50,042 bases of DNA. Origin: a virus (Duplodnaviria > Caudoviricetes). A program made the position numbers and the translations under genes. The notes below the pieces were generated by a model, which was given only the letters and a program-made list of their open reading frames with translations, did no database searches and was not told the DNA's origin. Position 1 is the first letter of the stretch, and every line of letters starts with the position of its first letter. The stretch is from positions 1-50,042 of the IMG/VR virus record IMGVR_UViG_3300025133_000164. One strand, given 5' to 3'. Shown here piece after piece: positions 12,582 through 42,335 of this stretch.

Positions 12582-13664
12582 TTAGGCGATCGAGGAACCC
12601 TCGATGACGCCGTTGCAGCGCAGCTGGTTGCAGTGGATGCCCCGGTAGTCGACGATCTCGTACCGGAAGAGGTCCTGCTCGGGGAGCCGGAAGGGACCAC
12701 GGAGGCTGAAGTCGCCCTTGGTCTCCTTGCTGGCGTCGTGGCCGAGGGTGTACATGTGCCAGGAAGCGGTCTTCATGAAGTAGATCACGCCGTTCCGGCC
12801 CGCACCACTGTTGAAGGCGGTAGCCGCCGGGCGGAGAGCGTCTTCCAGGAAGAAGTCCGCGTCGAGGAACTTGACGCCCATGCGGACGTTGCCCGGAACG
12901 TGGTCGTTCTGGACCGCCGTGGTCCGGACGTGATCGTCCAGATCCTCCAGGTAGTTCAGGTACGAGGTCTCGTCACCCAGCATCAGGTCGACGGGACCCA
13001 TCGACTTGCCCTGGCGCGAACAGGCGTAGTAGACCTGGCGCATGGTCGAGCGACCGTCGGTGGCGAAGCTGGTGACCTGGCCGTACTGGTTGTGCCAACC
13101 GGCGAGGCCGCCAGCCGCAGCCGGCTTGCCGAGACCGAAGACAGTCGAGGACTGCGCCGTGGTCGCAGCGAACTCGAAGACGCCAGTGCGAGCGGTGCCG
13201 TTCGGGTTGTAGGTCGTGTCGCCGTTGAGCGTGAGCAGGCCACCGACATCGGTGCCATCACCGGTCGCCAGCTGGTCCGCGTAGCGCTCGTGGAAGTCCG
13301 ACATGCCCAGTTCGGGGTAGTCGCGGAGGATCCGAGCGAGATCCTGTTCACCGTTGGCCTCGGCGAGGTCCTTGCCGGGGACGTCGAACGCGTAGATGAG
13401 CCGGGGGGCGTAGGTGTCACCGCGCGAGGCGTTCTGGCGGCGTCCGCCAGCGATGACCTCGGAGCCGGTCAGGACCTGGGTCACCGAGCCGGGGCCGTCG
13501 GTCACGACGGTGAACTCACGGTACGGTCCGGTGAGGACCGACTTGGTGAGGTTGCCCTTGAGGACGATCTTCTCCAGGATCGGATGCCACTGAACGAACA
13601 GCTCGCTGTACTTCGGCATCAGCTCCTGAAGAGCGGTGGCGAGAACGTCTGCGGAGATGGCCAT
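12582..13664 (-). CDS. Major capsid protein (HK97 fold, 360 aa)
   Basis: Size, position after an acidic scaffold, very strong codon bias, and a C-terminal YRGIHCNQLRCNGVI motif. Confidence 0.85.
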   Translation of the reverse strand: MAISADVLATALQELMPKYSELFVQWHPILEKIVLKGNLTKSVLTGPYREFTVVTDGPGSVTQVLTGSEVIAGGRRQNASRGDTYAPRLIYAFDVPGKDLAEANGEQDLARILRDYPELGMSDFHERYADQLATGDGTDVGGLLTLNGDTTYNPNGTARTGVFEFAATTAQSSTVFGLGKPAAAGGLAGWHNQYGQVTSFATDGRSTMRQVYYACSRQGKSMGPVDLMLGDETSYLNYLEDLDDHVRTTAVQNDHVPGNVRMGVKFLDADFFLEDALRPAATAFNSGAGRNGVIYFMKTASWHMYTLGHDASKETKGDFSLRGPFRLPEQDLFRYEIVDYRGIHCNQLRCNGVIEGSSIA

Positions 13665-13667
13665 GTT

Positions 13668-14606
13668 CTACTTCCTTCGGCTGGACCCCTTGAGGGCCCT
13701 CTTGACTGCGATGTTGCGGATGTCGTCCATGGAGTTGGCGCTCTGCATCGGATCGATCGGTGCAGGCGTTCCAGCCTTGCTGTCGCCTTCGGCACCGGAG
13801 GTGACTTGGGCTGACGATCGAGGAGCGGGTCGCTCTACTGGAGGTGTACCAGATCCCTGAGTCTCCAGCAAGGAGAATCTCACGGCGTGGTGCTGCGGAA
13901 CGCCCTGCTTCCACAGGGCGGTAGCCGCTTCGATGACTTCCTTGGGCTGAGAGAACAGCTGGACAGCCAGTTCGGGGTCCCAGTCCTGGTTGATCAGGTC
14001 GAGGATGCCCTTCTTGGAGGTCTTGTCCTTCAGGATGTCTGCGTGTCGGGCGTTGAACGCCGTCACCCAGTCCCGAGCTTCGTCGTCCGCCTGCTTCTGG
14101 ACGCGTTCCTTGTAGGTCGCGAAGTCGGACGTCAGCTTCTCGTGGTCTCCACGCCACTTGTCGCGCTCGGAGGTCAGGGTTCCGACTCGCGGATCCTCCT
14201 GCCCCTGGAGCATGGCGTCGTAGACGGTCTGGAGGCTGTTGAAGCTATCCTCGGCGGCCTTCACCCTCGGCTGGTAGTAGCCGTGGAACTTGTGGGCCAT
14301 CGTCCGATGCTCTTCGGGGAAGGTCATCAGATCCCCGTCCCACTCCTCCCAGCCGAAGTCGTCGTACCAGGGGGTCTCTGGCGGAGCGGCGACACCCGAC
14401 GTCGGGGACGAGGTCACGGAAGGGGGGGTTGAAGAGGCTCCGGCGTCGGAAGCCGCCTCTCCACCAGAGGTTTCGGAGTCCGACCCGGAGGTCGCAGACT
14501 CGGATCCACCGGCACCGCTGGTAGCGGACTCTCCGCCCCCAGCATCACCAGCAGGAGCGGATCCCACATCCGCAGTAGGTTCGTCTTCCAGCTCGTAGAG
14601 GTGCAT
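13668..14606 (-). CDS. Capsid scaffolding protein (312 aa)
   Basis: Acidic, low-complexity N-terminus (duplicated ESATSG), central coiled coil and basic C-terminal helix; directly upstream of the MCP. Confidence 0.75.
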   Translation of the reverse strand: MHLYELEDEPTADVGSAPAGDAGGGESATSGAGGSESATSGSDSETSGGEAASDAGASSTPPSVTSSPTSGVAAPPETPWYDDFGWEEWDGDLMTFPEEHRTMAHKFHGYYQPRVKAAEDSFNSLQTVYDAMLQGQEDPRVGTLTSERDKWRGDHEKLTSDFATYKERVQKQADDEARDWVTAFNARHADILKDKTSKKGILDLINQDWDPELAVQLFSQPKEVIEAATALWKQGVPQHHAVRFSLLETQGSGTPPVERPAPRSSAQVTSGAEGDSKAGTPAPIDPMQSANSMDDIRNIAVKRALKGSSRRK

Positions 14607-14962
14607 CAGATGTCCTCGCCCTTGTCGTCGGCCTCACCCTCGGACTTGTCGTCGGACTTGCTCTTCTTCTTGGGCGGACCGCCGTCGGCGTCGTCCTTCC
14701 CGAAAGCCTTCTTCACCGCGCCCATCCGCATGGACTCGATCGACATCGGCTCTTCGTCCGGAGGACCGCCAGCCAGCGGGTCGCCCATCGGAGGTCCACC
14801 CAGGGGGTCGGCACCCAGATCGCCCATCGGAGCTTCACCAGCGCTGGGAGCCAACTCGTAGCCCTCCATCTGGAGGAGCGACATCAGGGCCTGCCCGTCT
14901 GCGGGAGGGGCGGAAGCCAGCTTCTGAGCCAGGGCATCGTAGCCGGCGGGATCCATGGGCAT
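14606..14962 (-). CDS. Hypothetical acidic P/G-rich protein (118 aa)
   Basis: ATG at 14962 with AAAGGA RBS; TGATG overlap with the scaffold gene. Confidence 0.7.
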   Translation of the reverse strand: MPMDPAGYDALAQKLASAPPADGQALMSLLQMEGYELAPSAGEAPMGDLGADPLGGPPMGDPLAGGPPDEEPMSIESMRMGAVKKAFGKDDADGGPPKKKSKSDDKSEGEADDKGEDI

Positions 14963-14981
14963 GAGAACGTCCTTTGAAGAG

Positions 14982-15010
14982 AGGGTATGTGGTGTCCGAT
15001 CAGCTGTCAA
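14982..15010 (-). promoter_or_regulatory. Sigma-70-type promoter for the head operon
   Basis: Minus strand TTGACA-17 nt-TACCCT, ~20 nt upstream of the 14962 start. Confidence 0.65.
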
Positions 15011-15014
15011 CTAC

Positions 15015-17633
15015 CTAAAACTCGTCGCGTTCGCCGGTCAGGTAGCGGTGTGCACGGGTGAAGGGGGACTGCGGGGGTGCAGTCTGGATGACCTCACCGG
15101 AGTGCTTCATCACCTGGGCGAGAACCTCTTGCGAGATCGCCCCGTCCTTGTGCAGCTGTTGTGCCATCGGCTTGGAAGCTGCAAGAGCAAGCAGCCCCTC
15201 CTCGGAGAGGTCCCCAGGCTGAAGGGGCTTGCCCATCCGAAGAGCCTGGTGACGGAACTGGTTGCTGACCTCGTTGATCGCCTTCAGGTTCTCAGCAGCA
15301 AGAAGAGGGATGATGGCGACAGCTGCTGCGGCAGGGGATCCGGCAGCCATAAGCGCCTTGCTACCCAACGAATCCGGGGTGAGCTTGGCTTTCTCCCCCA
15401 GAAGGGCGTACTCGGAGGCCCGATTCCGGGCGTCGGCAAGGTTCATCTCCTCGATCTTCAAGTCCTGAGGAGCCAACTCGGCGGCTGGAGTCCCGAGCTT
15501 CTGCACCGAAGGGTCGAACCAGGGCTTCAGCTGGTCGCCTTCGAAGAAGTGGGCGTGAGGCTTAGTGCCGGGGGTTAGGCCAGACATGCCCCCCTCTGCT
15601 GTCAGCAACCCGTCGTAGCCCAGGGCCCGGATCTTCTGGTTCAGAGGCTCCAAAGTCTGCCAGTTGCCGTGGGCGGACACGAAGGAGTCAAACAACTCCC
15701 TGTTGTGCGGTAGTTTGACCGGCTCAATCAACTCCGGAGAAGACACAGGGAAGGACTTGAAGATCTGAGAAGGCATCAGATGAGTGCCTGAAGCAATCCC
15801 GGCCTCCAGATGCTGGATGAGCTTGCCTCGGTCCATCCAGGCCGTCTTATTCACCTCATCGGGCATGATCTCGACAAGGCTCGCGTAGACTTGGCCGTCG
15901 GAACTGGTGTAGGCAAGGACGGGCACCTTTTCAGGTAGCGCCTTCTTCAAGTACTCGACAGAGTCTGAAATGTCCTCAAAGCTGTACGTCGCCTTCAAAA
16001 GTTCATCATGGGGCAGCGCCCCACCCCACTGCTTCAAGTCGGGGTAGCTATCCATGACCGCTTCGTAGACATCCGGTTCGATCTTCGAAAACAGGTCGCC
16101 CTCTTCCTGCGGAGTCAACGACTCCCAGAGGCTGGTTCGATGTGCGGAATCCCACGGGTCGAACAGGTTCTTCGCACCCCCAACCAGCGGCAAAATCCGG
16201 GCGTACTGGGTCCTCTTCAGCAGAGGATCCGGATCGAAGGACTCCACTGCCGCCTGCCGAGGGATCGCTTCGGCTACTTCTACCGGCAGCAAGATCCGGC
16301 TATTCGGCTTTGGGTCCTCTTGGTAGAGGATGAGCTTGAGCGCCTCCTCTTTGGGGATCAGGACCCGATCGCCCAGGTTCCCCGAATCGGGGCCAAACCG
16401 AATCTTGACCGCAGGCTCTCCAGATACGAGGTCCTTCCCAGGTACTGAGACCCAAGTTGCGGTGACCTGCTCGGGAAGCTCCTGCTCCAAAAAATAGCGA
16501 ACAGCACGCGTGTTGCTGGGGTCTAACCGATAGCGTTGCTGGGCCTTATTGATTGCATCCACGCTCTTCACGTACTCAGGCGAATCCCAGTCCCATGGAG
16601 GGTCATAAGTACGCATGGCGTCGTGGACGGTGTTCTCGTCGTAGCCGATCCAATGAGAAGCAAACTCTGGACGCAGTGTTGTGGAGATCTGAGGCTCTGC
16701 CGCCAACCCCGGCTGGCGCGGCTCCAGGGTGATCTCCTTCTGCATCGTCGGAGACGGAACGTTGGGGAACCCCCGAACCTCAACAAGGTGCGACTCAAAG
16801 TCGTCTCCCGAAACGTGGAACTCCACCTGATCAACTTCGTTCTTCAGCATCTCTACGACTTCTCCCGAATACTCGTGAAAAAGCCCCCGACTTACAAGAT
16901 GAGTGACTGAATCCGCATCATCAGGCACCCCCACCAGCAAGGTTGCGGGGAACCCCCCCGCCCCCGGTTCGGCCTCGCGCATGCTGACTGGAACCCAGTC
17001 CGGGAAGAACCGATTGATGTGGGCATCCGCATCCTGGACGCTGGTAAGCCCGCCGTGAAACACCCGACCAGCCAAAGTATCCCAACCCTTTATGGCCCGG
17101 GCATGCAAGTAGGGCAGCTCCTTGCTTGTCAACTCTGAGAACCTGGCCCGATCAACCTCTTCGATTGGGAGGGCAGCGGTGCCGTGGTAGAGCCGCTCCG
17201 GCTTGCCTTCCTCGGTCTTGAGCTTCGGGTCGGTGCCCTTCCACCACTCCTGGGTGTCGACCAGATCCTGAAGCTCAGCCTGCTTCAAGGCGGATTGGGC
17301 TGCCTCTTGCCGAGCGACGGCGACCTTGTTCTGGGGAAGGGTCCGCTCGTAGGCGGCTTCCTTCATCCCTGGAGGCTGCCTCTTGAGGCCCTCCTTCATG
17401 ATCGTGTGCTCCAAGACGGGGAGCGGCGCGACCCAGTCGACCGCACGGGCGGCGATCCGCTTGCCCTGATCGGACTCCCAATCCTGGAGCCCCTGGAAGC
17501 GGTCGTCGTCCGTCTGCGTGCCGAGCGCCTTCCGAGCCGCACCCAGCCGATCATCCTGAAGCTCCTGGCTGGCAGACTTCTCCTGCTCGGGAAGGCCGTA
17601 GTGCTGCCGGATGCTCTTGTAGGGATCGGCCAC
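15015..17633 (-). CDS. ADP-ribosyltransferase-like protein (ART-PolyVal type) with three repeated insertions (872 aa)
   Basis: GTG at 17633 with AAGGAG RBS. Motifs in order: EGKPERLYHGT, ISTT.RPEFA, ILPL...KNLFD, GNWQTLE, LGYDG...EGG, FFEGDQLK. AT-richer than its flanks. Confidence 0.7.
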   Translation of the reverse strand: MADPYKSIRQHYGLPEQEKSASQELQDDRLGAARKALGTQTDDDRFQGLQDWESDQGKRIAARAVDWVAPLPVLEHTIMKEGLKRQPPGMKEAAYERTLPQNKVAVARQEAAQSALKQAELQDLVDTQEWWKGTDPKLKTEEGKPERLYHGTAALPIEEVDRARFSELTSKELPYLHARAIKGWDTLAGRVFHGGLTSVQDADAHINRFFPDWVPVSMREAEPGAGGFPATLLVGVPDDADSVTHLVSRGLFHEYSGEVVEMLKNEVDQVEFHVSGDDFESHLVEVRGFPNVPSPTMQKEITLEPRQPGLAAEPQISTTLRPEFASHWIGYDENTVHDAMRTYDPPWDWDSPEYVKSVDAINKAQQRYRLDPSNTRAVRYFLEQELPEQVTATWVSVPGKDLVSGEPAVKIRFGPDSGNLGDRVLIPKEEALKLILYQEDPKPNSRILLPVEVAEAIPRQAAVESFDPDPLLKRTQYARILPLVGGAKNLFDPWDSAHRTSLWESLTPQEEGDLFSKIEPDVYEAVMDSYPDLKQWGGALPHDELLKATYSFEDISDSVEYLKKALPEKVPVLAYTSSDGQVYASLVEIMPDEVNKTAWMDRGKLIQHLEAGIASGTHLMPSQIFKSFPVSSPELIEPVKLPHNRELFDSFVSAHGNWQTLEPLNQKIRALGYDGLLTAEGGMSGLTPGTKPHAHFFEGDQLKPWFDPSVQKLGTPAAELAPQDLKIEEMNLADARNRASEYALLGEKAKLTPDSLGSKALMAAGSPAAAAVAIIPLLAAENLKAINEVSNQFRHQALRMGKPLQPGDLSEEGLLALAASKPMAQQLHKDGAISQEVLAQVMKHSGEVIQTAPPQSPFTRAHRYLTGERDEF

Positions 17634-17635
17634 TT

Positions 17636-18142
17636 CTACTCCTTGGCGGGGCCTTGCCCACCACCTTCGAAGGTGTGCATCGCCGTAGCCCGCTCTTGCA
17701 GTTCGGGGGCCTTCTTGGCTTCGGGCGTTCTGTTGTGGAGGTCCGCACTCTTGTAGTAGGCGTCCCCGGCGTCGGCTACCTGATCCCGATGCTCCGACCA
17801 AGCCCGGTAGTCATCCATGTCCGACCTGAAGTCAGGCGAAATCGTGATCATCCCCTTCTGCTCCAAGAGCCGAGCTGTCTCCAGCGCGTTGATGATGTCC
17901 CGACTCCAGCCTTGAGGGAGGGGCGTCCCGGGATGGTCCTCGGGATCGAAACGCTCCTTCAACCCCCAGGCGCTACCGATACGCTCTGCCGAAGAAAGCT
18001 GCCGATCGTAGAGAGCGTCTCGCTTTTGGCCCAAGTCCTTATAAGCAGCAACATCTTCCTGCGCGCGTTCAGCCGAATCCCGAGAAGCTGTGATGGCGTC
18101 GCGTGCGGCACTGTCGCGCCAGGACTTCAGTTCATCCGACAT
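17636..18142 (-). CDS. Hypothetical protein (168 aa), partner of the ART gene
   Basis: AAAGGAG RBS; lies in the same AT-richer block; helical. Confidence 0.7.
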   Translation of the reverse strand: MSDELKSWRDSAARDAITASRDSAERAQEDVAAYKDLGQKRDALYDRQLSSAERIGSAWGLKERFDPEDHPGTPLPQGWSRDIINALETARLLEQKGMITISPDFRSDMDDYRAWSEHRDQVADAGDAYYKSADLHNRTPEAKKAPELQERATAMHTFEGGGQGPAKE

Positions 18143-18164
18143 GGATCTACTCCTTTCTCTGCTG

Positions 18165-18590
18165 CTATCCTACATGGGGGACGGGTGTGCTGTCTCCAAC
18201 TGCGCGCTTCTTCTCGGCTTCCTTCTTCGTGTACTCACGGCGGTGGTTCAGGTCGCGGAAGCCAGCTTCCTTCGACCGATCCTCAGCCAGGTTGCGGACG
18301 TGGTCGTAGTGGTCTCGCCACTCCTTGTCCTTCGGGTCGTGGAAGACGCCGTGCTTGCCCTCGTACTCCCGAAGCTGACTCTTCGTCGTGAAGGTCTTGC
18401 CAATCTGATCCACCCTGAAGGGGTGAGTGTCGGTGGGGCCTGACTGGACGGTCGGAAAGAGGACGTTGCTGGCGGGACCGCCACATTCCTCGCACCGGTG
18501 GCCATGCTCCTCGATGTCGGCCAGCTTCCAGTAGGTCTCCTGCTCGATGCCGCATTCCGGATCCAGGCAGCGTTCCATGTAGACAGGCAT
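18165..18590 (-). CDS. FmdB-like zinc-ribbon protein (141 aa)
   Basis: MPVY.ERC....C...CEECG pattern with a TGATG-coupled start; such genes commonly follow portal genes. Confidence 0.7.
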   Translation of the reverse strand: MPVYMERCLDPECGIEQETYWKLADIEEHGHRCEECGGPASNVLFPTVQSGPTDTHPFRVDQIGKTFTTKSQLREYEGKHGVFHDPKDKEWRDHYDHVRNLAEDRSKEAGFRDLNHRREYTKKEAEKKRAVGDSTPVPHVG

Positions 18591-18868
18591 CAGCCGTTCT
18601 CCTCGATGCCGTCCTTGAACATCTTGCTCTTGCACCAGTCCATAGCGTAGTAGAGGCGGGCGAGACCGGCGTCTCCGGGATCGAGTTGGGTGAGGTAGGT
18701 CAGCCCCTCCTCACCGGGCATGTCGACCACGGCGACGAGCGCGTACCCTTCCAGGTACCCGGCCTCCGCAATGTTGAGCATGTTGGTGAGGAACTTCTCG
18801 GCGGTCTCGCAGCTTGTCTTCTTCGTGGTCGCAGCCAGGATCGGCGCGCCAGCGGTGTCGTTCTCCAT
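18590..18868 (-). CDS. Hypothetical protein (92 aa)
   Basis: AGGAG RBS, strong codon bias, coupled to the downstream gene. Confidence 0.7.
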   Translation of the reverse strand: MENDTAGAPILAATTKKTSCETAEKFLTNMLNIAEAGYLEGYALVAVVDMPGEEGLTYLTQLDPGDAGLARLYYAMDWCKSKMFKDGIEENG

Positions 18869-18892
18869 GAGGTCCAGCTCCTTGGGTTTGGG

Positions 18893-20764
18893 CTACAGGG
18901 GGGATCCGGTCGGGCTTCCTTGGAAGCCGGCTTCGATGTCGGCGGGCAGGGGCGAACCCTGAGCAGGCCCCGGACCACCCGTCGGGAGGGCGGGAGGCTC
19001 GACGCCGGGAGGGAGATCCCCACCGGCCATGTTCGGGAGCGCACCGACGGGGCCACCAGCGGCGGGCGGACCCTCCGGAGCCGGGGGCTGCATCTGCTGC
19101 ATCTCCATCTGCTCCAGCATCTGCTTCACCATCTGGAGCTTCTGGTCGTCGACCATGATGTCCGTCATCTGGAGCGCCTGGAGCATCTTCTGGTAGAGCT
19201 TGATCTTGTCGACGATGGGCGAGTTGACCAGCATCTCCATGAAGTTCTGCATGTTGTTCAGCTGGACGAGGCGGTTGTTCTCCGTCGGGGAGTAGGGCAC
19301 CACGTCGTAGTCGTAGTCGAAGACGCCTTCGCCTCGGAAGTCCCGAAGCTCCTTTGCCCCGATGGCACCCATGTCCTTCCGGGTGACGTTGACCACCTCG
19401 CGCGAGTCCGTCAGACGGATCGCAAGCTCGGCGTCGTCCGCCATGAACTCCTCGTAGAGCGAGACGGCGGCGTGCGACATCCAGCCCACGGTGTCGTAGA
19501 CCTCCTTCATCCGACGCCCGTTCCGCGTACGAGTAGCGGTGTCCGCGAGCGCCACCTCGGTAGCGACGTCGGTGGTACCGACCGCTCCACGGGTGTATGC
19601 CGGGATGCCGAGCACGAACTCGATGATCTCGATGCAGCGGGCACGCATCTTGTCGAAGCTGGGCGACAGCTGCGGAGTCGGAGTCTGGCCGATGATGTCC
19701 TGGAGCGGCACGTTGTGCCGGCCATTCAGCTGGACCATCATGCCAGGGCTGACCGCGTTCCGCAGAGCAGCCATCGCCTGCTCGACGTTGTCGCACAGCC
19801 CGGCGTTCACGAGCAGGACAGGGATGGTGGTGTGGACGAACCACAGCTCCAAGCTGTCGATCTCGTTCAAGCGCTCCTGCACCGGAGCGATGAGCTTCAC
19901 ATCGGAGACGCCACCGATGTCCTGGATGGCATCGTTGAAGGTCATCAGGTGGAAGTTGCGCTTCAGCAGCCGGTACGGGAGGTCGTCCGACATGAGCGCG
20001 TCGGGGACCTCGTCGGCGTAGTGGAAGACCTTGTCGACGGTGTAGTCGTGGAACTCGTAGACGATCACCCACTTGAAGGCGTCCTTCGCCGGCTTCCCGG
20101 AGAAGTGATCCTCCCGGACTTGGTCTCGCAACCACTCCGGGTAGCCGGTGGCCTGGACCTTGTCGGAGGTGGCCTTGTCGTAGACGCCCTTGCCCTTGCC
20201 CTTCTTGTAGCGGCCGGGCGTCTTCACCCGCTGCTTGAACTCGGACTTGGTCATCGTGGTGACGTGGATGAAGTAGCGGATGTTCTCCCACCGATCCGCC
20301 GTCATGTCGAACCACCCACGGCGGGGGTCGATGCTGACGAACTCGGGGCGCGAGCGCTTGAAGTTCCACACTGCCTTCTGGAGGCCACGTCCGGTGATGG
20401 ACGCCTGGGTCGCCATCCGCCAGATGGCCTTGTGAGCCTTCTGATCCTTCAGCGTCGTGTTGGCGAGAGCCTCCCGGAAGATGGCCATGGGCTGGAGGGC
20501 CTTCCGTCGAGCGTTCACCGTCACCTGCGGGTTCGTCGGGCAGACGTTCGCGACCATGGTGTCGATGTAGGCGTACGGGTAGTTGGTCTCCAGGCTGAGG
20601 TCGCCATCGGACTCGGCGTCGCCACCGCTACCGGAGGGGCTGTCGACCGCAGGAGCGTTGTACTCGGACAGATACCAGCTCTGGTACCGGTCCCACTCCT
20701 CCCGCTCGTCGCGAGCCTTCTCCTTGTGGATCTTGATGATGTCGAGGTGCTCGGAGGTGTCCAC
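18893..20764 (-). CDS. Portal protein (623 aa)
   Basis: Follows the terminase; TTDVATEVAL motif and a Q/M/P-rich C-terminal tail as in P22-type portals. Confidence 0.85.
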   Translation of the reverse strand: MDTSEHLDIIKIHKEKARDEREEWDRYQSWYLSEYNAPAVDSPSGSGGDAESDGDLSLETNYPYAYIDTMVANVCPTNPQVTVNARRKALQPMAIFREALANTTLKDQKAHKAIWRMATQASITGRGLQKAVWNFKRSRPEFVSIDPRRGWFDMTADRWENIRYFIHVTTMTKSEFKQRVKTPGRYKKGKGKGVYDKATSDKVQATGYPEWLRDQVREDHFSGKPAKDAFKWVIVYEFHDYTVDKVFHYADEVPDALMSDDLPYRLLKRNFHLMTFNDAIQDIGGVSDVKLIAPVQERLNEIDSLELWFVHTTIPVLLVNAGLCDNVEQAMAALRNAVSPGMMVQLNGRHNVPLQDIIGQTPTPQLSPSFDKMRARCIEIIEFVLGIPAYTRGAVGTTDVATEVALADTATRTRNGRRMKEVYDTVGWMSHAAVSLYEEFMADDAELAIRLTDSREVVNVTRKDMGAIGAKELRDFRGEGVFDYDYDVVPYSPTENNRLVQLNNMQNFMEMLVNSPIVDKIKLYQKMLQALQMTDIMVDDQKLQMVKQMLEQMEMQQMQPPAPEGPPAAGGPVGALPNMAGGDLPPGVEPPALPTGGPGPAQGSPLPADIEAGFQGSPTGSPL

Positions 20765-20837
20765 TTGTCAAGTCTCTTTCGGTAATATTCTCGCCGCCCA
20801 GCCCGTGGTGTGAGAAGGGAGCTTGGTGGGGCGCGAA

Positions 20838-22640
20838 TTACTTCCGTCGGCGGTTCCGACCCACCCTAACACGCTTCCGGCGGGACGATTCTCGGTGCCT
20901 TTCTTCCTTGAGGCGGTACTCCTGCACCTGATTCCAGGTCAGGTCCTTGAACAGGACAGCGTTTCCGGCCTTGTCGACCGCCTTTCGGGGCTTGATTCGC
21001 CTCGGAGCGAACCTCGCGCCCACCACTGCCATCATCAGGGCGCTGATCTTGTCCCAGTGGTGCCTGTCGCGGCGTCCCTTGCCCACCTTTCCGCGCGCTG
21101 TCTCCGCTCGGGCGCTGTCTTCGATGAGCTTGTCGTTCCGGTAGGTGACCAGCTGGCTGACGGTGTCCTTGTCGAGCAGAATCAGCTCGTCCTTCAGCCC
21201 GTCAGAGAGCCATCCGATCATCTCGTGGAGGCTCTTGCTGGTAGTGGCGAACCCAGGGCGGCGGGGCTTCTCGTAGAAGAGGTTCCGGTAGCCGCTCTGC
21301 TGGATGGAGGTGATCACGGCCTGTCCAACACCGTTGGACTCGACGATGATGTTGGCGTTGTTGTACCGCTCAGCCGTCAGGAGGAGGTGTCGGGTGAACT
21401 CCAGGGGAGGGCTGTGATCCGCGAAGGAAGCGACCTGGGTCCACTCCCCGTCCCACACCTTCAGCACCTGATAGGCGGCATGATCTCGGGCGGTGGAGCC
21501 TGCGGGGTCGACGCCGATGATGTACTGCGCCGCATCCTGCGGAGGTTCGAACTCCTTGTAGGGACCCTCCCACTCCTGGAGGTCCGGATTCTTCTGGTGC
21601 TTCTCGATGAGCGTCGGGTGGATGGCAGACCGGGAGGTGGCGACCCAGCAGGTGACGTCGTCGAAGGGGTAGAAGACGCGGAAGAGGTCGGGGTTCCGAC
21701 GGATCTCTGCGTCGGTGTCCAGCATCAGGCGCCGGAACTGGAGGTTGTCCCTCGTCAGGTAGATCCCGAACCTGCCGTGGGTGTCGGCGCTGTCGTCGGG
21801 GTTGCCGTTGGGGTTGCCGTACTGCTGGAGCATCTGAAGCTCCTCGTCGGTCAGCTTGTTCCGCTTGTCCCATGTACGGGCGTTCAGCTTCCCGTCCCAG
21901 AAGGGGAAGAAGCCGTAGACCAGCCGCCCCTTCCGGAGCTTGGCGTCCCGGCAGTGATCCTGCCACCACTCCACGGAGGGCTCGTCCGCCGGTGCGGGCG
22001 TCGCCTCGTTGATGACGAAGGCGTTGTCGCGCTGGATCATCGAGGGCCAGAAGTAGTTGAACTGCCCTGCCGCATCCGACCAGAAGGGAAGCTCGCTCCC
22101 GTGGAAGGAGTCGGGGGACTGCCCGATACCGACAGCGCCAGCCTCACCTGACAGGACGCGCATCCGCCCACCGACCTTGTCGTGGAAGGTCAGCTGGCGG
22201 CTCTCCCTCACAGGCAGCGTCGGGGCGCGTAGCTCCGCAGGCCATCGAGAGTGGAGGAAGTGGACACGGCGGTGGAGGTAGTCGGCGCGGTCCCTGGTAT
22301 CGGCGATCGTCAGATGGTCCCAGCCCGGAGTGTAGGCGGCCTTGGTGTAGCAGCCGTACTCGGCGGTCAGGGACTTGCCCCCCTGCCGGTAGCCGAGGCA
22401 GACATAGAAGGCGTTCTGCCCGTTGACCTGTGGAGGGTTCGACATGTACGCCAGCATCGACAGCTGGAGTCGGTGCGTGATCGCCTTGGGGTCGTAGTCG
22501 ACGAAGCTCGCGGTTCGGATGTCGTGGACCTGCCCCCACATGGGGAGGGACTGGATCGGAGACCGGAGCGTCGTGAGCAGCTTGCGCGCCGCAGCCTGCT
22601 GGGCCTTACTCGTGGAGCCAGGCTTGCTGAGGATGCTCAT
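20838..22640 (-). CDS. terL: Terminase large subunit (600 aa)
   Basis: Walker A YRQGGKS, Walker B FHGSE, coupling motif EAT, nuclease motifs GVDPAG, VESNGVG and HHWD. Confidence 0.92.
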   Translation of the reverse strand: MSILSKPGSTSKAQQAAARKLLTTLRSPIQSLPMWGQVHDIRTASFVDYDPKAITHRLQLSMLAYMSNPPQVNGQNAFYVCLGYRQGGKSLTAEYGCYTKAAYTPGWDHLTIADTRDRADYLHRRVHFLHSRWPAELRAPTLPVRESRQLTFHDKVGGRMRVLSGEAGAVGIGQSPDSFHGSELPFWSDAAGQFNYFWPSMIQRDNAFVINEATPAPADEPSVEWWQDHCRDAKLRKGRLVYGFFPFWDGKLNARTWDKRNKLTDEELQMLQQYGNPNGNPDDSADTHGRFGIYLTRDNLQFRRLMLDTDAEIRRNPDLFRVFYPFDDVTCWVATSRSAIHPTLIEKHQKNPDLQEWEGPYKEFEPPQDAAQYIIGVDPAGSTARDHAAYQVLKVWDGEWTQVASFADHSPPLEFTRHLLLTAERYNNANIIVESNGVGQAVITSIQQSGYRNLFYEKPRRPGFATTSKSLHEMIGWLSDGLKDELILLDKDTVSQLVTYRNDKLIEDSARAETARGKVGKGRRDRHHWDKISALMMAVVGARFAPRRIKPRKAVDKAGNAVLFKDLTWNQVQEYRLKEERHRESSRRKRVRVGRNRRRK

Positions 22641-29676: not shown

Positions 29677-29750
29677 AGCTGGACAAGAGGGAAGCAGGTG
29701 GGGTGACCTGCCTGCTTCCTTCTGGCCCAACATCGGGAAGGAGAGGAAGA

Positions 29751-31268
29751 ATGTCCTTGCAGATCGATACCACCCAGCTGCGCCCGGCGAAGCCGTGGCC
29801 CACGGAGATGCAGGTCGCACGCATCCGAGCACAGAAGGTCTACCCGTTCTTGTCGGACTGGCTGTTCAGTGTGTCGCTCATCGTGTCGGAGCAGGTCGCG
29901 CTCCCTCGTGGAGAAGGCAAGCCGCCCCAGCCCACGATGGCGTGCGATGCGTACGGTCGGGTGTACGTGCACCCCAGCCTGCTGACGGGCGACGACGCCT
30001 GGGACCGGGACGTCCTGGGTGGTGTCCTGCTCCACGAGATCGGACACCTCGTCCGTGACCACGCCAAGCGTGGAGCGAAGGCAGTGTGGCAAGGAGTGCG
30101 CGTGCACCCCACCGTCTACAACATCGCCGCCGACGGCGAGATGAACACGGGCCTGGAGCGTGACGGTGCGAAGCTGCCGGATTGGGGCGTGTTCCCCGGA
30201 CGGATGGCACCGGACGGAGGGGAGACTCTCCTCTCCGATGCTGTTCCGGGGCTCCTGGCTGAGCAGTACGTCGACCACATCATGAAGAAGCTCCAGCAGC
30301 AGGTGCAGCAGGGTGGGGCGACGGGTGACTCCGACGATCCCAACGCCGTGCCCGTGCCCATGCCGGGGGGGTCGGGTGGCGGCGCTTCCTGCCCGAAGGG
30401 TGAGGGTGCGAGCGGAGGTGAGTGCGGCTCCGGGGGTGGCGGTGAGAAGCAGCCGTGGGAACTGGACGCGCCGGGGCAGGGCTCATCTGATGGTGAGTCA
30501 GACTCATCTGATAGTGAGCCTGGGGGTTCGTCGGAGCAGGGTCGTCAGTCCCTGCGCGACCAGCTGAAGAGCCAGCAGGACCCGACGGGTGGGATGTCCG
30601 AACAGGAGATGGACACCCTGCGCAGGGTGACGGCGGGCAAGGTCCAGCAGTGGGCGAAGGGTCGCGGCCACGGTGCCGGTAGCTGGTCCATGTGGGCTGA
30701 CTCCGTGCTGGAGGAGCCCCCCGTCTCGCCGGAGGAACTGCTGCGCGACGCGCTGAACCAGGCCAGGGAGTGGGCGTCGGGTCGGGGTGACTTCACCTTC
30801 GGACGCATGCCCCACCGGCGCAGGGTGGTGGGCGGTGGTGGCATCGTGCCCCCCGGTGTCGTGCGCCCCGTGCCCCGTGTCATCCTGATGGTAGACACGT
30901 CCGGTTCCATGGGTGGCGACGGGCCGCAGGTGCTGGGCTGGGTCGATGCCTTCTGCCGTGAGTCGGCGACCCCCGTGGAGATCTTCTGCGTGGACTACGA
31001 CGTGAAGAGCACGGGTATGCAGAACGTGTCGGACGTGAGCGATGTCCAGTGGACGGGCGGCGGTGGCACCGACATGCGGGTGGGGTTCCAGTACCTGATG
31101 AAGACGGGGAACATCCCCGATGTCCTCGTGGTGGTGACCGACGGCTACACCCCGTGGCCCGCACGGGAGCCCGGCTTCCGCACGGTCATCGCCCTGACCC
31201 AGGACAGCGGCTCCCACTACAAGCCCCCCTCGTGGGCGGACGTGGTGGAGTGCAAGGAGAAGGTGTGA
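29751..31268 (+). CDS. Zincin-like metallopeptidase + vWA protein (DUF2201 type, 505 aa)
   Basis: HEIGH, YNIAADGEMN, G/S/D/E linker, MIDAS DTSGS, GGGGTDM and VTDG motifs. Confidence 0.9.
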   Translation: MSLQIDTTQLRPAKPWPTEMQVARIRAQKVYPFLSDWLFSVSLIVSEQVALPRGEGKPPQPTMACDAYGRVYVHPSLLTGDDAWDRDVLGGVLLHEIGHLVRDHAKRGAKAVWQGVRVHPTVYNIAADGEMNTGLERDGAKLPDWGVFPGRMAPDGGETLLSDAVPGLLAEQYVDHIMKKLQQQVQQGGATGDSDDPNAVPVPMPGGSGGGASCPKGEGASGGECGSGGGGEKQPWELDAPGQGSSDGESDSSDSEPGGSSEQGRQSLRDQLKSQQDPTGGMSEQEMDTLRRVTAGKVQQWAKGRGHGAGSWSMWADSVLEEPPVSPEELLRDALNQAREWASGRGDFTFGRMPHRRRVVGGGGIVPPGVVRPVPRVILMVDTSGSMGGDGPQVLGWVDAFCRESATPVEIFCVDYDVKSTGMQNVSDVSDVQWTGGGGTDMRVGFQYLMKTGNIPDVLVVVTDGYTPWPAREPGFRTVIALTQDSGSHYKPPSWADVVECKEKV

Positions 31269-35414: not shown

Positions 35415-35525
35415 CGGGGAAGCCTGTTCACCCGCACACCCGTTCAGCTACCGCCACCATGCCCGGTGCGGTACTCTGCTAAGACTCGCCCTGCTTCAAG
35501 GGCTCGACGAGAGGCACTCTCTTCC

Positions 35526-37766
35526 ATGCTTCCCTGGTCGTTCTCGATCTTCAGGGGTGGGTTCACCGATACCCAGCCCCAACAAGTGAACCTGCCTTCA
35601 GCACAGGCGATCCGCAGACTCTTCGAACGACCTCCCCAGAAGCCGAGCAGCTACTACAAGCGCCGGCTCCCGTGCTGGTCACCAGCCCTGTACCCGCAGG
35701 GCAAGACACGCAGGAACGACAACGTCCAGGGGCTCACTGCCCTGGTGCTGGACGTGGACGACGGCAGCGTCGGTCCCAAGGAAGCGGGTCACCTGCTCCA
35801 GGCTCAGAGCCTGAACCATGCGGTCTACTCGACGTGGAACCACAGCCTGTCCCGGCCCAAGTACCGGGTGGTGATCTTCGTCAACAGGGTCATCAAGGCT
35901 CACGAGTTCTCCTCCCTTTGGCAGTACGCCCAGAAGATCCTGGGTCACGTAGGTGACCAGGCGTGCAAGGATCTGGCCCGCCACTACGCCCTGCCGATCC
36001 GACGTCGGCGTGCCGAGGAGTACGTCGGCACCGTCTGGCTGGACGGCCAGGACCTCGACGTGGACAGGATCCTCATCGAGCAGAAGGTTCACGGTCAGCA
36101 GACCAACGCGCAGGGTGGCACCACCAAGGCTGCCAAGCTCACGGAGAAGGAACCTCCGATTGCGCTGACCAAGACGACGCCCATCACCCTGAACTCAGGG
36201 AAGACCATCACCCCCGAGGTGCTGATCAAGGCGGGCGAGGCCAAGTACAAGTGCTTCTGCCCGTGGGAGGATGGAGCCAGCGCAGGGTCTGCCTTCGTCC
36301 GCGTCATGGCAGACGGGCGCTGCTTCCTCCGCTGCACCTCCACGGGACACAGCCATCCGGGTCGGCAGTGGTGGGTCAGCAACACGGCGAAGAAGGGTGC
36401 GGGTACACGATCCGTCTCCGAACGCCGCAACCTGCTGACCGAAGTGCCCCCGGACATCGCCCGGTACGCGGAAGCGTCCCTCGCCTACAACCTCCAGCAG
36501 CAGGCGTTCTTCCGTCGGCAGCGGGGGAAGTGGTTGATCGGCTCACCGCTCCGGAAGAACGACCTCACTGATCACCTTGTTGGACTTCTGCCCGAGGGGT
36601 GCGGGCAGAAGCATGCTATTGCGCTGGTAGACCACGTTCTGAGCAGGCAGACCTACGGTTACGATGTAGTCTCAGAAGGACTACCGATCGTATCACGCGA
36701 TGGTCAGCGGATGATGAACCTGTACGCCGAGCCGAAGCTGAAGCCGAAGCCGCACCCCTTCCCTACCCTGAAGGCGATGCTGAAGGTGCTCGCTGCCAGC
36801 GACCCTGGCGCTGAGAAGTGGCTCGTCCACTGGTCAGCAGCCCTGGTCCAGGCACCCGAGCGCCGAGGCATGACCGCTGTCCTGTGCATGTCCCCTCAGC
36901 AGGGGATCGGCAAGAGCATGTACGGTCGGATCCTCTCCCACATCATCGGGGAAGGGAACACCGCCGTCGTCTCCAACCGCGCACTCCGGGACAACTTCAA
37001 CGCCAGCTACGTCACTGCGCTCTTCATCCTGGCCGACGAGGTCGGCATCCATCCTGCGGCGAAGGACGTCGTAGCTGAGATCAAGACCTACATCACGGAT
37101 GAAGAGGTCCACCTTGCTGCCCCCTACGCTGCGAGGACGAAGACGAAGAACCGCATGACGTGGTGGATGACGAGCAACGAACTTCGCCCCCTGCTCATCG
37201 AGCAGGACGACAGGCGGATGACGGTGCTCGCTTCCGGCACGGCGTCGGTCGACTACAAGCTGAGCTTGCGGGATGCCTTCGACTCCAAGACGGGGACGTT
37301 CACGGAAGACTTCCAGGCAGAGGTGTGCGGGTTCGCCCACGCCCTCCGCAAGCTGAAGGTGGACTGGTCTCTCATCGCCAAGCCTTACGAGACGGGAGCC
37401 AAGCGCCTCCTCTTGAAGGCCAGCCTTGGTAGCCTCACTGCCTACAAGAAGCTGCTGGAGCAGATCGGCATCGCCGGAACCCTGTCCTCCTACCCGCCCA
37501 ACCACGACGCCAAGCAGCTGATGCAGCTTGCAGCCCGTGGGACGGCCACCTGTCAGACAGCCTACTCGTCCTACCGGACGTGGTGTCAGCGGCACGGTCG
37601 ACGTGACGAGCGTCCCGAAGCCGAGTTCCAGCTCGTCATGCTCTCGATCCAGGGTGTCACGGTGAAGACCCTGCATCGAGGAGGGGAGTACATCGATGTC
37701 TACCGAGGACTACCTCAACGTCGGGGGAACGACCGCAAGGGCCAAGTGGTTAGCCTACCTGGATAG
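35526..37766 (+). CDS. Primase (AEP/PrimPol-like) fused to an SF3 helicase (DUF5906 type); start may be 35466
   Basis: Primase motifs LVLDVDD, YSTWNH, KYRVVI and D..CKD.AR; Zn-like CFCPW..C..H; Walker A QGIGKS, Walker B ILADE, motif C MTSN. Confidence 0.88.
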   Translation: MLPWSFSIFRGGFTDTQPQQVNLPSAQAIRRLFERPPQKPSSYYKRRLPCWSPALYPQGKTRRNDNVQGLTALVLDVDDGSVGPKEAGHLLQAQSLNHAVYSTWNHSLSRPKYRVVIFVNRVIKAHEFSSLWQYAQKILGHVGDQACKDLARHYALPIRRRRAEEYVGTVWLDGQDLDVDRILIEQKVHGQQTNAQGGTTKAAKLTEKEPPIALTKTTPITLNSGKTITPEVLIKAGEAKYKCFCPWEDGASAGSAFVRVMADGRCFLRCTSTGHSHPGRQWWVSNTAKKGAGTRSVSERRNLLTEVPPDIARYAEASLAYNLQQQAFFRRQRGKWLIGSPLRKNDLTDHLVGLLPEGCGQKHAIALVDHVLSRQTYGYDVVSEGLPIVSRDGQRMMNLYAEPKLKPKPHPFPTLKAMLKVLAASDPGAEKWLVHWSAALVQAPERRGMTAVLCMSPQQGIGKSMYGRILSHIIGEGNTAVVSNRALRDNFNASYVTALFILADEVGIHPAAKDVVAEIKTYITDEEVHLAAPYAARTKTKNRMTWWMTSNELRPLLIEQDDRRMTVLASGTASVDYKLSLRDAFDSKTGTFTEDFQAEVCGFAHALRKLKVDWSLIAKPYETGAKRLLLKASLGSLTAYKKLLEQIGIAGTLSSYPPNHDAKQLMQLAARGTATCQTAYSSYRTWCQRHGRRDERPEAEFQLVMLSIQGVTVKTLHRGGEYIDVYRGLPQRRGNDRKGQVVSLPG

Positions 37767-37788
37767 GCGGCCCATCCTTCGCGGAGAC

Positions 37789-38334
37789 ATGCCCCAGCGC
37801 CGAGCCGCAACCCGTGAGCTGGTGAGCAGCTGGGAGCGTAGTTTCTGGTGGCAGGCCCCTCTCCGGATCGTGCTCACCACACCGGAGAAGATCTCCGAAA
37901 GCGCGCTCATGCAGCTGGCCAACGAAGGCCAACCCGCCGACGTCAACGACGACTGCCTGTGTGGTGGCCGGCTCTACGAGGTTTGGGAGACCCTCCCCGA
38001 GGAGGGAGTTCTCTGCCCGTGGGAGTTCTGCACCACCTGCAACACCCACCACTACTACTTCGGAACTGGAGACCAAGTTGCCTCTCTTCTCGTGGCAGAA
38101 GACGATCCCGAACCACTGGCTGGAGGTCCCGGGAGTCTACAAGAACAAGCGCAACGACGGTGGGCGAGTCCCGCACAACGCGCATGGGATCTTGGGGCTG
38201 CCACCTGTGGTCCCAGCCAGTGGTGGCCTGAGGACGTTCGACAAGCTCGTTACATCCGCCTGCTTCCCCTCGTGGATGAAAAGCCTCCCGACGGAGTACC
38301 AACGCCGAACTACGGCTGGCGCACTGAGTCGTGA
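37789..38334 (+). CDS. Zinc-ribbon protein (181 aa; 3' part overlaps the helicase gene)
   Basis: GGAG RBS; CLCGG...CTTC; good codon bias only up to ~38065. Confidence 0.55.
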   Translation: MPQRRAATRELVSSWERSFWWQAPLRIVLTTPEKISESALMQLANEGQPADVNDDCLCGGRLYEVWETLPEEGVLCPWEFCTTCNTHHYYFGTGDQVASLLVAEDDPEPLAGGPGSLQEQAQRRWASPAQRAWDLGAATCGPSQWWPEDVRQARYIRLLPLVDEKPPDGVPTPNYGWRTES

Positions 38335-39679: not shown

Positions 39680-40077
39680 AGAGTAGCGAGGGGTGGACGT
39701 CGGATGACGTCATGCAGCTTTGGCAGCAGTTTGTCACCAGATGTCTCCGCCGCTATCGAGCCGGCGATCCGCTATCGGATCGTGTTACACTTGGTAGTAT
39801 GAAGACAGCCCGAAGCGAAGGAGTGGTAATGGCCCTTTGGCCATCCCGCTCCGCCTTCGATCACTGCTTCGCAGTCTGGTCGGAGGCAGGTCAAGTGAGC
39901 TACTTCATCCCGAACACCCTTGTTGGTGGGCTGGGTGCACTGAACTCCCCCAACCCCTGGTACCCGTTGGACCAGCTGACGGCGTGGGTCGAGGAGAACG
40001 TAGCTTCGGACCCGAAGCTCATCGAGCTTCTCGATGCCACCGACGCCCTTCAAGGGCTGGAGCGACTCAATGGGTGA
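39676..40077 (+). CDS. Hypothetical protein (133 aa)
   Basis: GTGA overlap with the helicase; slightly AT-richer. Confidence 0.55.
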   Translation: MKSSEGWTSDDVMQLWQQFVTRCLRRYRAGDPLSDRVTLGSMKTARSEGVVMALWPSRSAFDHCFAVWSEAGQVSYFIPNTLVGGLGALNSPNPWYPLDQLTAWVEENVASDPKLIELLDATDALQGLERLNG

Positions 40078-41264: not shown

Positions 41265-41271
41265 CGGAAGC

Positions 41272-41538
41272 ATGAGCACCCACCTGGAAGTCGCGATCCG
41301 AGAGCTGACGCGCGAGACCGAGGACTTCGCCGATGCCCACCAGTACCTGGACGAAGTCGTCGAAGACGTGGGCTGTACGGAAGCTGCCGCGTTGCACGCC
41401 CTGTACGCGCACTACGGCGACGAGGTACCTGTCGACCAGGCTGCGGAATGCCACGAATGCGGCGCACCTGCGCCGACGGGTGTGTACCAGTGCCCGGCAT
41501 GCCGCGCCGTCGCATGCGCAACGCAGAACACGCTGTGA
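41272..41538 (+). CDS. Zinc-ribbon protein (88 aa)
   Basis: CHEC...CPAC. Confidence 0.6.
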   Translation: MSTHLEVAIRELTRETEDFADAHQYLDEVVEDVGCTEAAALHALYAHYGDEVPVDQAAECHECGAPAPTGVYQCPACRAVACATQNTL

Positions 41539-42288: not shown

Positions 42289-42335
42289 GAGAGCGAGAGC
42301 AACCGAACAACCGAGACGAGTCAACAGGAGAGATC

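What the first reader, a model, noticed from the sequence alone, without database searches (positions are those of the whole stretch)
15015..17633. ADP-ribosyltransferase fold split three times by copies of one unknown domain
Seen: the motifs of a normally ~150-200-aa ART-PolyVal-like domain are spread over ~560 aa (YHGT ~17180, ISTT..P.FA ~16670, ILPL..KNLFD ~16180, GYDG..E..F...QLK ~15520-15620). Three inserts of ~150-165 aa separate them. Each insert contains a related core: DADAHINRFFPDWVPV..PATLLVGVPDD..THLVSRG; RAVRYFLEQELPEQVTA..PAVKIRFGPDS..RVLIPKE; DSVEYLKKALPEKVPV..YASLVEIMPDE..TAWMDRG. Inference: one module was inserted into three different loops of a virion-associated ART, giving a multivalent target-recognition or sensor-gated toxin/anti-defence enzyme. 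I do not recognise this architecture.
Basis: partly seen in the sequence, partly recalled or inferred. Interest (0 to 1): 0.85.

Follow-up and report, generated by a model that had tools for sequence, protein, structure and literature searches.

The report
Phage ADP-ribosyltransferase with a giant middle
A phage head-module gene encodes a protein whose two ends of an ADP-ribosyltransferase domain are clearly recognisable but lie about 490 amino acids apart, and the claim that three copies of one inserted domain split it could not be shown.

Summary
The 872-aa ORF (15015-17633, minus strand) is real. It has an AAGGAG site 5 nt before its GTG start and is intact in three near-identical public copies.

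A profile built here from 62 viral ART-PolyVal domains matches the protein at both ends of the claimed domain. These are residues 126-167 (LYHGT, catalytic-His strand) and 654-711 (GYDG, catalytic-Asp strand, then FF..DQLK..FDP). The HMMER score is 20.0 bits, against a maximum of 11.8 bits in 5000 shuffles, and it is the top hit among 2008 control frames.

The 486 residues between the two blocks show no similarity to the profile (z -0.1 and -1.2). The three "related cores" are the best three-way alignment present, but shuffles equal it (45-62 of 200; 5 of 100 for the two-block chain).

Pfam's own PF18760 model gives no hit. Both AlphaFold runs were low-confidence, so the fold question stays open. 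A decayed tandem array of ART copies is a live rival.

The C-terminal 140 aa are shared with proteins encoded beside internal-virion genes. Verdict: a new variant of a known kind (a head-packaged ART). The triple-insert architecture is unproven.

The parts
15015..17633 (-). Whole gene, 872 codons plus stop; product P0001
   Evidence: Open frame and translation. GC3 is higher than GC2 along the whole frame. Three near-identical 872-aa copies lie on contigs of up to 53 kb.
17639..17644 (-). AAGGAG ribosome-binding site, 5 nt before the GTG start at 17633. The stop codon of the upstream gene (17636-17638) lies in the spacer.
   Evidence: Read directly from the sequence.
17259..17633 (-). aa 1-125: charged region, predicted helical, no recognised family
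   Evidence: No Pfam, PHROG or NCBIfam hit. Against the ART profile z=-0.5. Helices appear in a low-confidence model.
17133..17258 (-). aa 126-167: ART-PolyVal N block. It holds the W..K....EGKP lead-in, strand 1 LYHGT with the catalytic His150, and the following helix.
   Evidence: HMMER domain 1 covers residues 129-164 and profile nodes 4-36, 13.3 bits. z=11.4. hhalign P=1.7e-4. His and Thr align to family columns H 53 and T 46 of the covering rows.
15675..17132 (-). aa 168-653: orphan middle, where a normal domain has about 60-100 aa holding the strand-2 Tyr, helix 2, strand 3 and a variable loop
   Evidence: No similarity to the ART profile: z=-0.1 against the whole profile and -1.2 against nodes 40-96. 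No strand-2 or strand-3 motif found. No relatives in 1.84 billion representatives. GC3 is 0.70 here against 0.79 in the rest of the gene, p=0.003.
   Evidence: Part of the best three-way block and chain, which are not above shuffles. Predicted helix-strand-strand-helix in a low-confidence model.
   Evidence: Predicted helix, three strands, helix in both low-confidence models.
   Evidence: Predicted helix, three strands, helix (block pLDDT 67-76 at aa 560-569 and 600-619).
15501..15674 (-). aa 654-711: ART-PolyVal C block. It holds a helix, the GYDG strand with the catalytic Asp674, then HAHFFEGDQLK and WFDP.
   Evidence: HMMER domain 2 covers residues 654-682. z=7.7. hhalign aligns 657-703, P=0.004. 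G, Y, D, G, F, Q and K align to near-invariant family columns. pLDDT is 57-90 in the hybrid model.
15033..15431 (-). aa 735-867: C-terminal module shared with P0002 and P0003, including an uncharged 21-residue stretch at aa 760-780 (nt 15294-15356)
   Evidence: phmmer E=3.6e-7 and 2.1e-4. Alignment A1. The homologous genes lie beside an internal-virion-protein gene (phrog_511) in the marine contigs L002 and L003.

Best explanation
P0001 is an orphan head-module protein built around a genuine but highly atypical ART-PolyVal (H-Y-D clade) ADP-ribosyltransferase domain.

Shown:
- The block with the catalytic His (LYHGT, aa 126-167) is conserved.
- The block with the catalytic Asp (GYDG…FF..DQLK..FDP, aa 654-711) is conserved.
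- The two blocks lie in one frame, separated by 486 aa with no detectable relatives. The family normally has about 60-100 aa there.
- The last 140 aa are a module shared with small proteins encoded next to internal-virion genes.

Inferred:
- The two halves belong to one ART core. Its central strands, including the NAD-stacking Tyr, have diverged beyond recognition and sit within very large insertions. These insertions may contain up to three weakly similar alpha/beta units.
- The protein is made late and packed into the capsid through its C-terminal module.
- It enters the host with the DNA and uses NAD+ to ADP-ribosylate a host target.
- The expanded middle provides target choice or regulation.
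For: - ART homology of both ends.
- The protein-language-model search of aa 130-720 returned ART-PolyVal clusters as its three best hits, score 0.87-0.88. This is a lead only.
- The His-to-Gln span is 551 aa, against 87-216 in 59 family members. In that family only the strand-3 to GYDG loop takes large inserts, up to 145 aa.
- One continuous coding frame with GC3 above GC2 throughout, and a ribosome-binding site.
- Position between the terminase and a portal-sized ORF on one side and the capsid gene on the other. The capsid call rests on BLASTP E=1e-6 to a phrog_9953 head protein.
- Context of the C-terminal module.
- Literature, passages read: this ART clade has H in strand 1, Y in strand 2 and D in strand 5, and is predicted to be packaged (PMC5512222). 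About 44% of phage ARTs lie in head-packaging contexts, and ARTs carry inserts (PMC9503650).
Against: - Pfam's curated PF18760 model gives no hit at E<=10 on the protein or on the six frames of the record, so the curated threshold is not met.
- No strand-2 Tyr motif or strand-3 motif can be located. An active single core is therefore assumed, not shown.
- It is odd that strand 2, which is well conserved in the family, should be unrecognisable while strands 1 and 5 are kept.
- Both AlphaFold models are low-confidence (pLDDT 39.5 and 47.8), and fold searches found nothing.
- The portal assignment of the 623-aa ORF rests on position only: there is no family hit, and BLASTP to the L003 portal gives E=2.1.
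- Virion packaging is inferred from gene order only.
Confidence: 0.5

Rival explanations
1. Decayed tandem array. The region aa 126-711 descends from two or three head-to-tail ART-PolyVal copies. Only the first copy's N half and the last copy's C half stay well conserved. The reader's 'middle blocks' and 'cores' are then remnants of the other half-domains.
For: - Tandem copies are common in this family. Five of the seven family loci re-scanned carry two in-frame domain hits. Iyer et al. 2017 report up to 12 copies in one protein (passage read).
- The two best C-block hits in the middle are GYD (aa 330-332) and SPEYVKSVDA (aa 351-360). They fall in the right order and spacing, and hhalign lists 351-362 as its third hit.
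- The top three-block chain is SHWIGYDENT / WDWDSPEYVKSV / YRLDPSN at aa 326-374.
- A first copy ending there would span His150 to aa 354, 204 aa, which is inside the family range.
Against: None of this is above chance. The top C-block hit has p=0.18 and the top N-block hit p=0.29. The two-block chain has p=0.09 and the three-block chain p=0.10. The hhalign third hit has E=0.26. The whole middle against the whole profile gives z=-0.1. The model also has to explain why only the outermost halves stayed conserved.
Confidence: 0.25
2. One ART core is cut in three different loops (after YHGT, after ISTT..FA and after ILPL..KNLFD) by three copies of a single unknown domain of about 150 aa.
For:
- Windows cut around the cores give a summed Smith-Waterman p=0.002, and p=0.004 for cores 1 against 3.
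- Both AlphaFold runs predict a similar helix-strands-helix pattern at the aligned cores of inserts 2 and 3, and the first run predicts it for insert 1.
Against: - The windows were chosen after seeing the match.
- Unbiased tests fail: 45-62 of 200 shuffles match the three-way block, 5 of 100 match the chain, and z=-0.8, 1.6 and -0.3 for the whole inserts. Self-BLAST finds no repeat.
- ISTT and ILPL are only third-ranked, chance-level placements of strands 2 and 3.
- My long-gap alignment put strand 3 at aa 337-346 instead, and MAFFT scattered the family's middle differently in each run.
- In 59 family members the first two loops never exceed 22 and 32 aa.
- The secondary-structure agreement comes from models with pLDDT mostly under 60.
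Confidence: 0.12
3. Inactive remnant. The ART ends are relics kept for structural reasons in a purely structural or scaffolding internal head protein, and no ADP-ribosylation occurs.
For: - The strand-2 Tyr motif is missing.
- The family's P133 is Gly699 here, and the position with Glu in 18 of 60 members is His693.
- The curated Pfam threshold is not met.
- GC3 is lower than in the neighbouring head genes, 0.70-0.83 against 0.87-0.89.
Against: The two residues that define the clade's active site and can be checked, His150 and Asp674, are both kept, together with their flanking near-invariant residues. The frame is intact in three independent copies.
Confidence: 0.13

Closest known systems
ART-PolyVal domain (Pfam PF18760), the ART of phage and conjugative-element polyvalent proteins (Tox-ART-HYD2-related; Iyer et al. 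2017, PMC5512222)
   Same: Same lead-in and strand-1 motif (W..K…G.P..YHGT). Same GYDG strand with the catalytic Asp. Same F…Q.K and FDP tail. Phage origin and late or head-gene neighbourhood.
   Different: The domain spans 586 aa instead of about 105-230. The strand-2 Tyr motif and strand 3 are not detectable. There is no hit with the curated Pfam model. No second effector domain is recognised, so it is not a demonstrable 'polyvalent' protein.
Phage T4 Alt, a head-packaged ADP-ribosyltransferase
   Same: The proposed way of working: made late, packed in the head, injected with the DNA, modifies host proteins (description read in PMC5512222).
   Different: Alt belongs to the R-S-E (Alt/VIP2) clade, whereas P0001 has His rather than Arg in strand 1. 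No sequence relationship was seen or tested beyond Pfam and PHROG scans, which gave no hit.
Internal virion (ejected) proteins of T7-like podoviruses, as represented by the phrog_511 gene in L002
   Same: The C-terminal 140-aa module of P0001, with its uncharged 21-residue stretch, is homologous to 365-408-aa proteins encoded two genes upstream of a phrog_511 internal virion protein gene.
   Different: P0001 itself gives no PHROG hit. In the window it lies between the portal-sized ORF and the scaffold and capsid genes, not among the tail-proximal genes. Membership of any internal-virion family is not shown.

Membership tests
ART-PolyVal (PF18760) | Score above Pfam's gathering cut-off (31.2 bits) with the curated model | tested here: not met
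   No PF18760 hit at E<=10 on the whole protein or on aa 129-663, nor in the six frames of the record. The custom 62-sequence profile gives 20.0 bits.
ART-PolyVal (PF18760) | Strand-1 motif with catalytic His (YHGT) and its conserved lead-in | tested here: met
   aa 129-164 align to profile nodes 4-36, 13.3 bits. z=11.4. His150 aligns to a column with H in 53 of the 56 covering rows. hhalign P=1.7e-4.
ART-PolyVal (PF18760) | Strand-2 Tyr (G.GfYFT…A..Y) | tested here: inconclusive
   No regex match. The best placements score 4.3-4.9 bits, and shuffles reach that 67% of the time. The middle against nodes 40-96 gives z=-1.2. A diverged strand cannot be excluded.
ART-PolyVal (PF18760) | Catalytic Asp in the GYDG strand ('strand 5' of Iyer et al.) | tested here: met
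   G672-Y-D674-G675 align to columns with G 58, Y 43, D 58 and G 54 of about 60 covering rows. C block z=7.7.
ART-PolyVal (PF18760) | C-terminal yVAF.P.QIKS and GtFDP tail | tested here: met
   F697, Q701 and K703 align to near-invariant columns, and FDP is present at aa 706-708. However, family P133 (55 of 61) is Gly699 here.
ART-PolyVal (PF18760) | Compact single domain | tested here: not met
   The His-to-Gln distance is 551 aa, against 87-216 (median 125) in 59 members.
ART superfamily | Split beta-sheet ART fold | tested here: inconclusive
   AlphaFold pLDDT is 39.5 (single sequence) and 47.8 (hybrid alignment A3). Foldseek against the PDB gave no hit at E<=0.001. The best VIA-align Z was 4.3, to unrelated helical chains.
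ART superfamily | NAD+-dependent transfer activity | not testable with these tools
   Needs a biochemical assay.
Polyvalent proteins (Iyer et al. 2017) | Two or more unrelated effector domains in one virion-delivered polypeptide | tested here: inconclusive
   Only the ART ends and an uncharacterised C-terminal module are recognisable. The 486-aa middle and aa 1-125 have no assignment.
Internal repeat (three copies of one insert domain) | Inserts more alike than shuffled sequence | tested here: inconclusive
   Whole inserts give z=-0.8, 1.6 and -0.3. The three-way block is matched by 45-62 of 200 shuffles and the chain by 5 of 100. Windows chosen after the fact give p=0.002. Self-BLAST finds nothing.
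Head-packaged phage effector | Gene within the head morphogenesis module | tested here: met
   The minus-strand order is terminase (Terminase_6C, phrog_2), a 623-aa portal-sized ORF, three small ORFs, P0001, two acidic ORFs, a capsid-like ORF and an SU10-adaptor-like ORF. Physical presence in virions is not testable here.

The most novel reading that the evidence does not exclude
One ADP-ribosyltransferase core carries three copies of the same alpha/beta module (helix, two or three strands, helix) nested in three different loops. This would make a head-delivered enzyme whose single active site is surrounded by three similar recognition or gating domains. Such repeated nested insertion of one domain into one catalytic fold has, as far as my searches went, not been described for ARTs.
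Probability: 0.12. Interest if true: 0.75.

Novelty: new variant of a known kind. Interest (0 to 1): 0.42.

Why it matters
Head-packaged ARTs are a known phage strategy for taking over or disarming the host in the first seconds of infection. This one keeps the clade's catalytic His and Asp blocks but has about four times the normal domain length and no detectable relatives for 486 aa.

If the two ends do form one core, the protein is a natural example of how far an ART fold can be expanded, and of where target-recognition modules can be grafted onto it. If it is a decayed tandem array, it shows how multi-copy ART effectors erode.

Either way, the profile and long-gap approach used here shows that curated domain models can miss such stretched domains completely.

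Tried and rejected
**Searches that found nothing**
- Pfam, PHROGs and NCBIfam on P0001. The only Pfam row was MgtE_N at E=0.024, below its cut-off.
- phmmer against PDB sequences. The only row was an antibody Fab at E=2.3.
- tblastn against 50,697 phage records.
- Word-indexed protein search: only the query itself among 7996 scored candidates.
- phmmer over 1.84 billion representatives. It gave 4 hits: the query itself, two C-terminal-module proteins, and one spurious repeat protein, P0004.
- IMG/VR scans with P0001 peptides and with the C-terminal alignment A1.
- PHROGs on ten further structural-side ORFs.
- The middle region against the 62 family sequences with phmmer --max: all scores near 0 bits.
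- Protein-atlas search of aa 335-660 with PF18760 left out: best score 0.80, which is chance level.

**Structure**
- The single-sequence AlphaFold model (pLDDT 39.5) and the hybrid-alignment model (47.8) are too poor to read the fold.
- Foldseek against the PDB and the VIA-align wide search gave no usable match.
- A hybrid alignment made only of family full-length rows was rejected as circular, because MAFFT scatters the family's middle onto arbitrary query residues.
- A pieces-only alignment was rejected because MAFFT overlaid the N and C pieces.

**Steps not run**
A long-gap profile alignment was used instead (54.5 against 32.5±4.2, 0 of 1000 shuffles, Gumbel p about 0.002). Its signal comes from the outer blocks only.
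- Complex prediction, because no binding claim is made.

**Ideas considered and dropped**
- Inteins or introns as the inserts: there are no Hint or intein hits, and the coding frame with GC3 above GC2 is unbroken.
- An assembly artefact: three near-identical copies exist.
Full report
**The gene.** The window is a 50,042-bp virus record, about 91% complete by CheckV, with 61-67% G+C. The finding lies in one open frame on the minus strand. The start at GTG 17633 is preceded by AAGGAG with a 5-nt spacer that contains the stop codon of the upstream gene. The product, P0001, has 872 aa. GC1, GC2 and GC3 show a coding pattern along the whole frame. Three near-identical 872-aa versions exist on contigs of up to 53 kb, so the long frame is not an assembly accident.

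**Neighbourhood.** The gene order on the minus strand is:
- terminase large subunit (Terminase_6C, phrog_2)
- a 623-aa portal-sized ORF with no family hit
- three small ORFs
- P0001
- two acidic ORFs
- a 360-aa ORF
- an SU10-adaptor-like ORF

The 360-aa ORF matches a phrog_9953 major head protein of a marine contig by BLASTP, E=1e-6 over 101 aa. The portal assignment rests on size and position only; BLASTP to the L003 portal gives E=2.1.

**Standard annotation fails.**
- Pfam, PHROGs and NCBIfam give no family for P0001.
- PF18760 itself gives nothing at E<=10 on the protein or in the six frames of the record.
- The word-indexed search returned only the query.
- phmmer over 1.84 billion representatives returned the query, one spurious repeat protein, and two proteins of 408 and 365 aa. 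These two match only aa 735-867 (E=3.6e-7 and 2.1e-4).
- No relative is in the phage records or in IMG/VR.
- A protein-language-model search of aa 130-720 gave ART-PolyVal clusters as its three top hits at 0.87-0.88. The tool rates this as a lead only.

**Testing the ART claim.**
- I obtained two bona fide PF18760 domains from 401 Bacillota genomes; 2 of the 401 had a hit. One further protein came from the word-indexed search.
- I aligned the three (A2) and used the alignment to fetch 80 IMG/VR loci.
- Sixty-two distinct translations of at least 100 aa were aligned and turned into a 157-node HMM. Duplicates and fragments under 100 aa were dropped.
- hmmsearch --max gives P0001 20.0 bits (E=3.5e-8 for one sequence) in two colinear pieces. 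Residues 129-164 match nodes 4-36 (13.3 bits), and residues 654-682 match nodes 94-120 (4.1 bits).
- Five thousand shuffles of P0001 reach at most 11.8 bits.
- Among 2008 stop-to-stop frames of at least 100 aa (247 from the window, 1761 from 80 bacterial loci), the P0001 frame is first at 19.8 bits and the next scores 11.0.
- hhalign finds the same two blocks, with P=1.7e-4 and 4e-3.
- In the hybrid alignment A3, H150, T152, G672, Y673, D674, G675, F697, Q701 and K703 fall on the family's near-invariant columns (family counts).

Iyer et al. 2017 describe this ART clade as H (strand 1), Y (strand 2), D (strand 5), related to Tox-ART-HYD2 (passages read). The catalytic His and Asp are therefore present. 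The profile node with Glu in 18 of 60 members aligns to His693.

**The middle.**
- The His-to-Gln span is 551 aa in P0001, against 87-216 (median 125) in 59 family members. In that sample the first two loops never exceed 22 and 32 aa, and only the loop before GYDG takes large inserts, up to 145 aa.
- Region by region against shuffles: N block z=11.4, C block z=7.7, but aa 168-653 gives z=-0.1 against the whole profile and -1.2 against nodes 40-96.
Shuffles reach the top score 67% and 53% of the time. No strand-2 or strand-3 regular expression matches.
- My long-gap alignment scores 54.5 against 32.5±4.2 (0 of 1000 shuffles, Gumbel p about 0.002; twelve other window proteins score 15-41.6). It draws its signal from the outer blocks, and it placed strand 3 at aa 337-346, not at ILPL.
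- MAFFT put the family's middle somewhere different in each run.
- GC3 of the middle is 0.70, against 0.79 for the rest of the gene (Fisher p=0.003). The neighbouring head genes have 0.87-0.89. This is a modest hint of a different history.

**The three 'related inserts'.**
- Self-BLAST finds no repeat.
- Smith-Waterman scores of the whole inserts give z=-0.8, 1.6 and -0.3.
However, 62, 45 and 49 of 200 shuffles score as high, for windows of 10, 14 and 18 residues.
- Windows cut around the cores give a summed p=0.002, but that choice was made after the fact.
- Both AlphaFold runs predict a similar helix-strands-helix pattern at cores 2 and 3, and the first run predicts it at core 1. pLDDT is mostly below 60.

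I therefore rate the repeat as possible, not shown.

**Structure.**
- Single-sequence AlphaFold gave pLDDT 39.5.
- I then built an alignment in which 12 full family rows bridge 90 N-only or C-only pieces, so that the middle stays almost unbiased.
- That model reached pLDDT 47.8. The N block scored 60-81, the C block 57-90, and most of the rest was below 50.
- Foldseek against the PDB and the VIA-align wide search returned nothing usable; the best Z was 4.3, to helical chains.
- The fold question is open.

**A rival that emerged.**
- Tandem ART-PolyVal copies are frequent. Five of seven re-scanned family loci have two in-frame hits, and the literature reports up to 12 copies.
- In the middle of P0001 the two best C-block hits are GYD at aa 330-332 and SPEYVKSVDA at aa 351-360. 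They have the right order and spacing and are followed by YRLDPSN.
- The statistics are weak: p=0.18 and 0.29 for single blocks, 0.09 and 0.10 for chains.

**C-terminal module and delivery.**
- Residues 735-867, including an uncharged stretch at aa 760-780, align with P0002 and P0003.
- Their genes lie in marine podovirus-like contigs after the portal, head and two further genes, and two genes upstream of a phrog_511 internal virion protein.
- The head-module position, together with published surveys, makes packaging and injection the likeliest mode of action. Those surveys report that about 44% of phage ARTs lie in head-packaging contexts and that ARTs tolerate inserts (passages of PMC9503650).
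- Packaging itself is inferred, not shown.

**Novelty.** Three full-text searches turned up no description of an ART-PolyVal with such an interruption: 'ART-PolyVal', 2 papers; polyvalent proteins + ART + phage, 7 papers; and ART + domain insertion + bacteriophage + virion, 3 papers. A term search for 'insert' in Iyer et al. also found none. The kind, a head-module ART effector, is known. The stretched, largely orphan domain is a new variant.

Noticed in passing
window 44890-47577 (+): An 895-aa ORF combines a uracil-DNA-glycosylase-superfamily domain (aa 31-193), a 3'-5' exonuclease domain and a family A DNA polymerase in one polypeptide.
   Followed up: no
window 29703-31268 (+): A 521-aa ORF has a DUF2201_N putative metallopeptidase domain plus a VWA-like DUF2201 domain. 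Its partners in the neighbourhood were not examined.
   Followed up: no
window 35466-43783 (+): A replication block holds a DUF5906/VapE-like protein, an SNF2-type helicase, a PD-(D/E)XK nuclease and an AAA_24 protein.
   Followed up: no
window 12582-20764 (-): The capsid-like, scaffold-like and portal-sized ORFs, and ten further structural-side ORFs, give no Pfam or PHROG hit. The phage is very distant from described ones. Only a pairwise BLASTP hit (E=1e-6) ties the 360-aa ORF to a known head-protein family.
   Followed up: partly
window 15015-17633 versus 12582-13664, 18893-22640: P0001 has clearly lower third-position G+C (0.58-0.83 by segment) than the capsid, portal-sized and terminase genes (0.87-0.89). 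This suggests later acquisition or weaker codon adaptation.
   Followed up: partly
L139 (aa 195-457 of frame 1), L141, L144/L145, L203, L206: Viral ART-PolyVal domains often come as two in-frame copies. The second copy in L139 spans 263 aa through a long insert before its GYDG strand.
   Followed up: partly
L002 1405-2613 and L003 7194-8423: Marine contigs encode proteins of about 400 aa that share only the C-terminal module of P0001. They have unrelated N-terminal parts with no Pfam hit. The module looks like a portable unit.
   Followed up: partly
window 18165-18635 (-): A 156-aa ORF upstream of P0001 weakly matches phrog_13665 (unknown function, E=2e-4) over a Cys-pair-containing stretch.
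   Followed up: no
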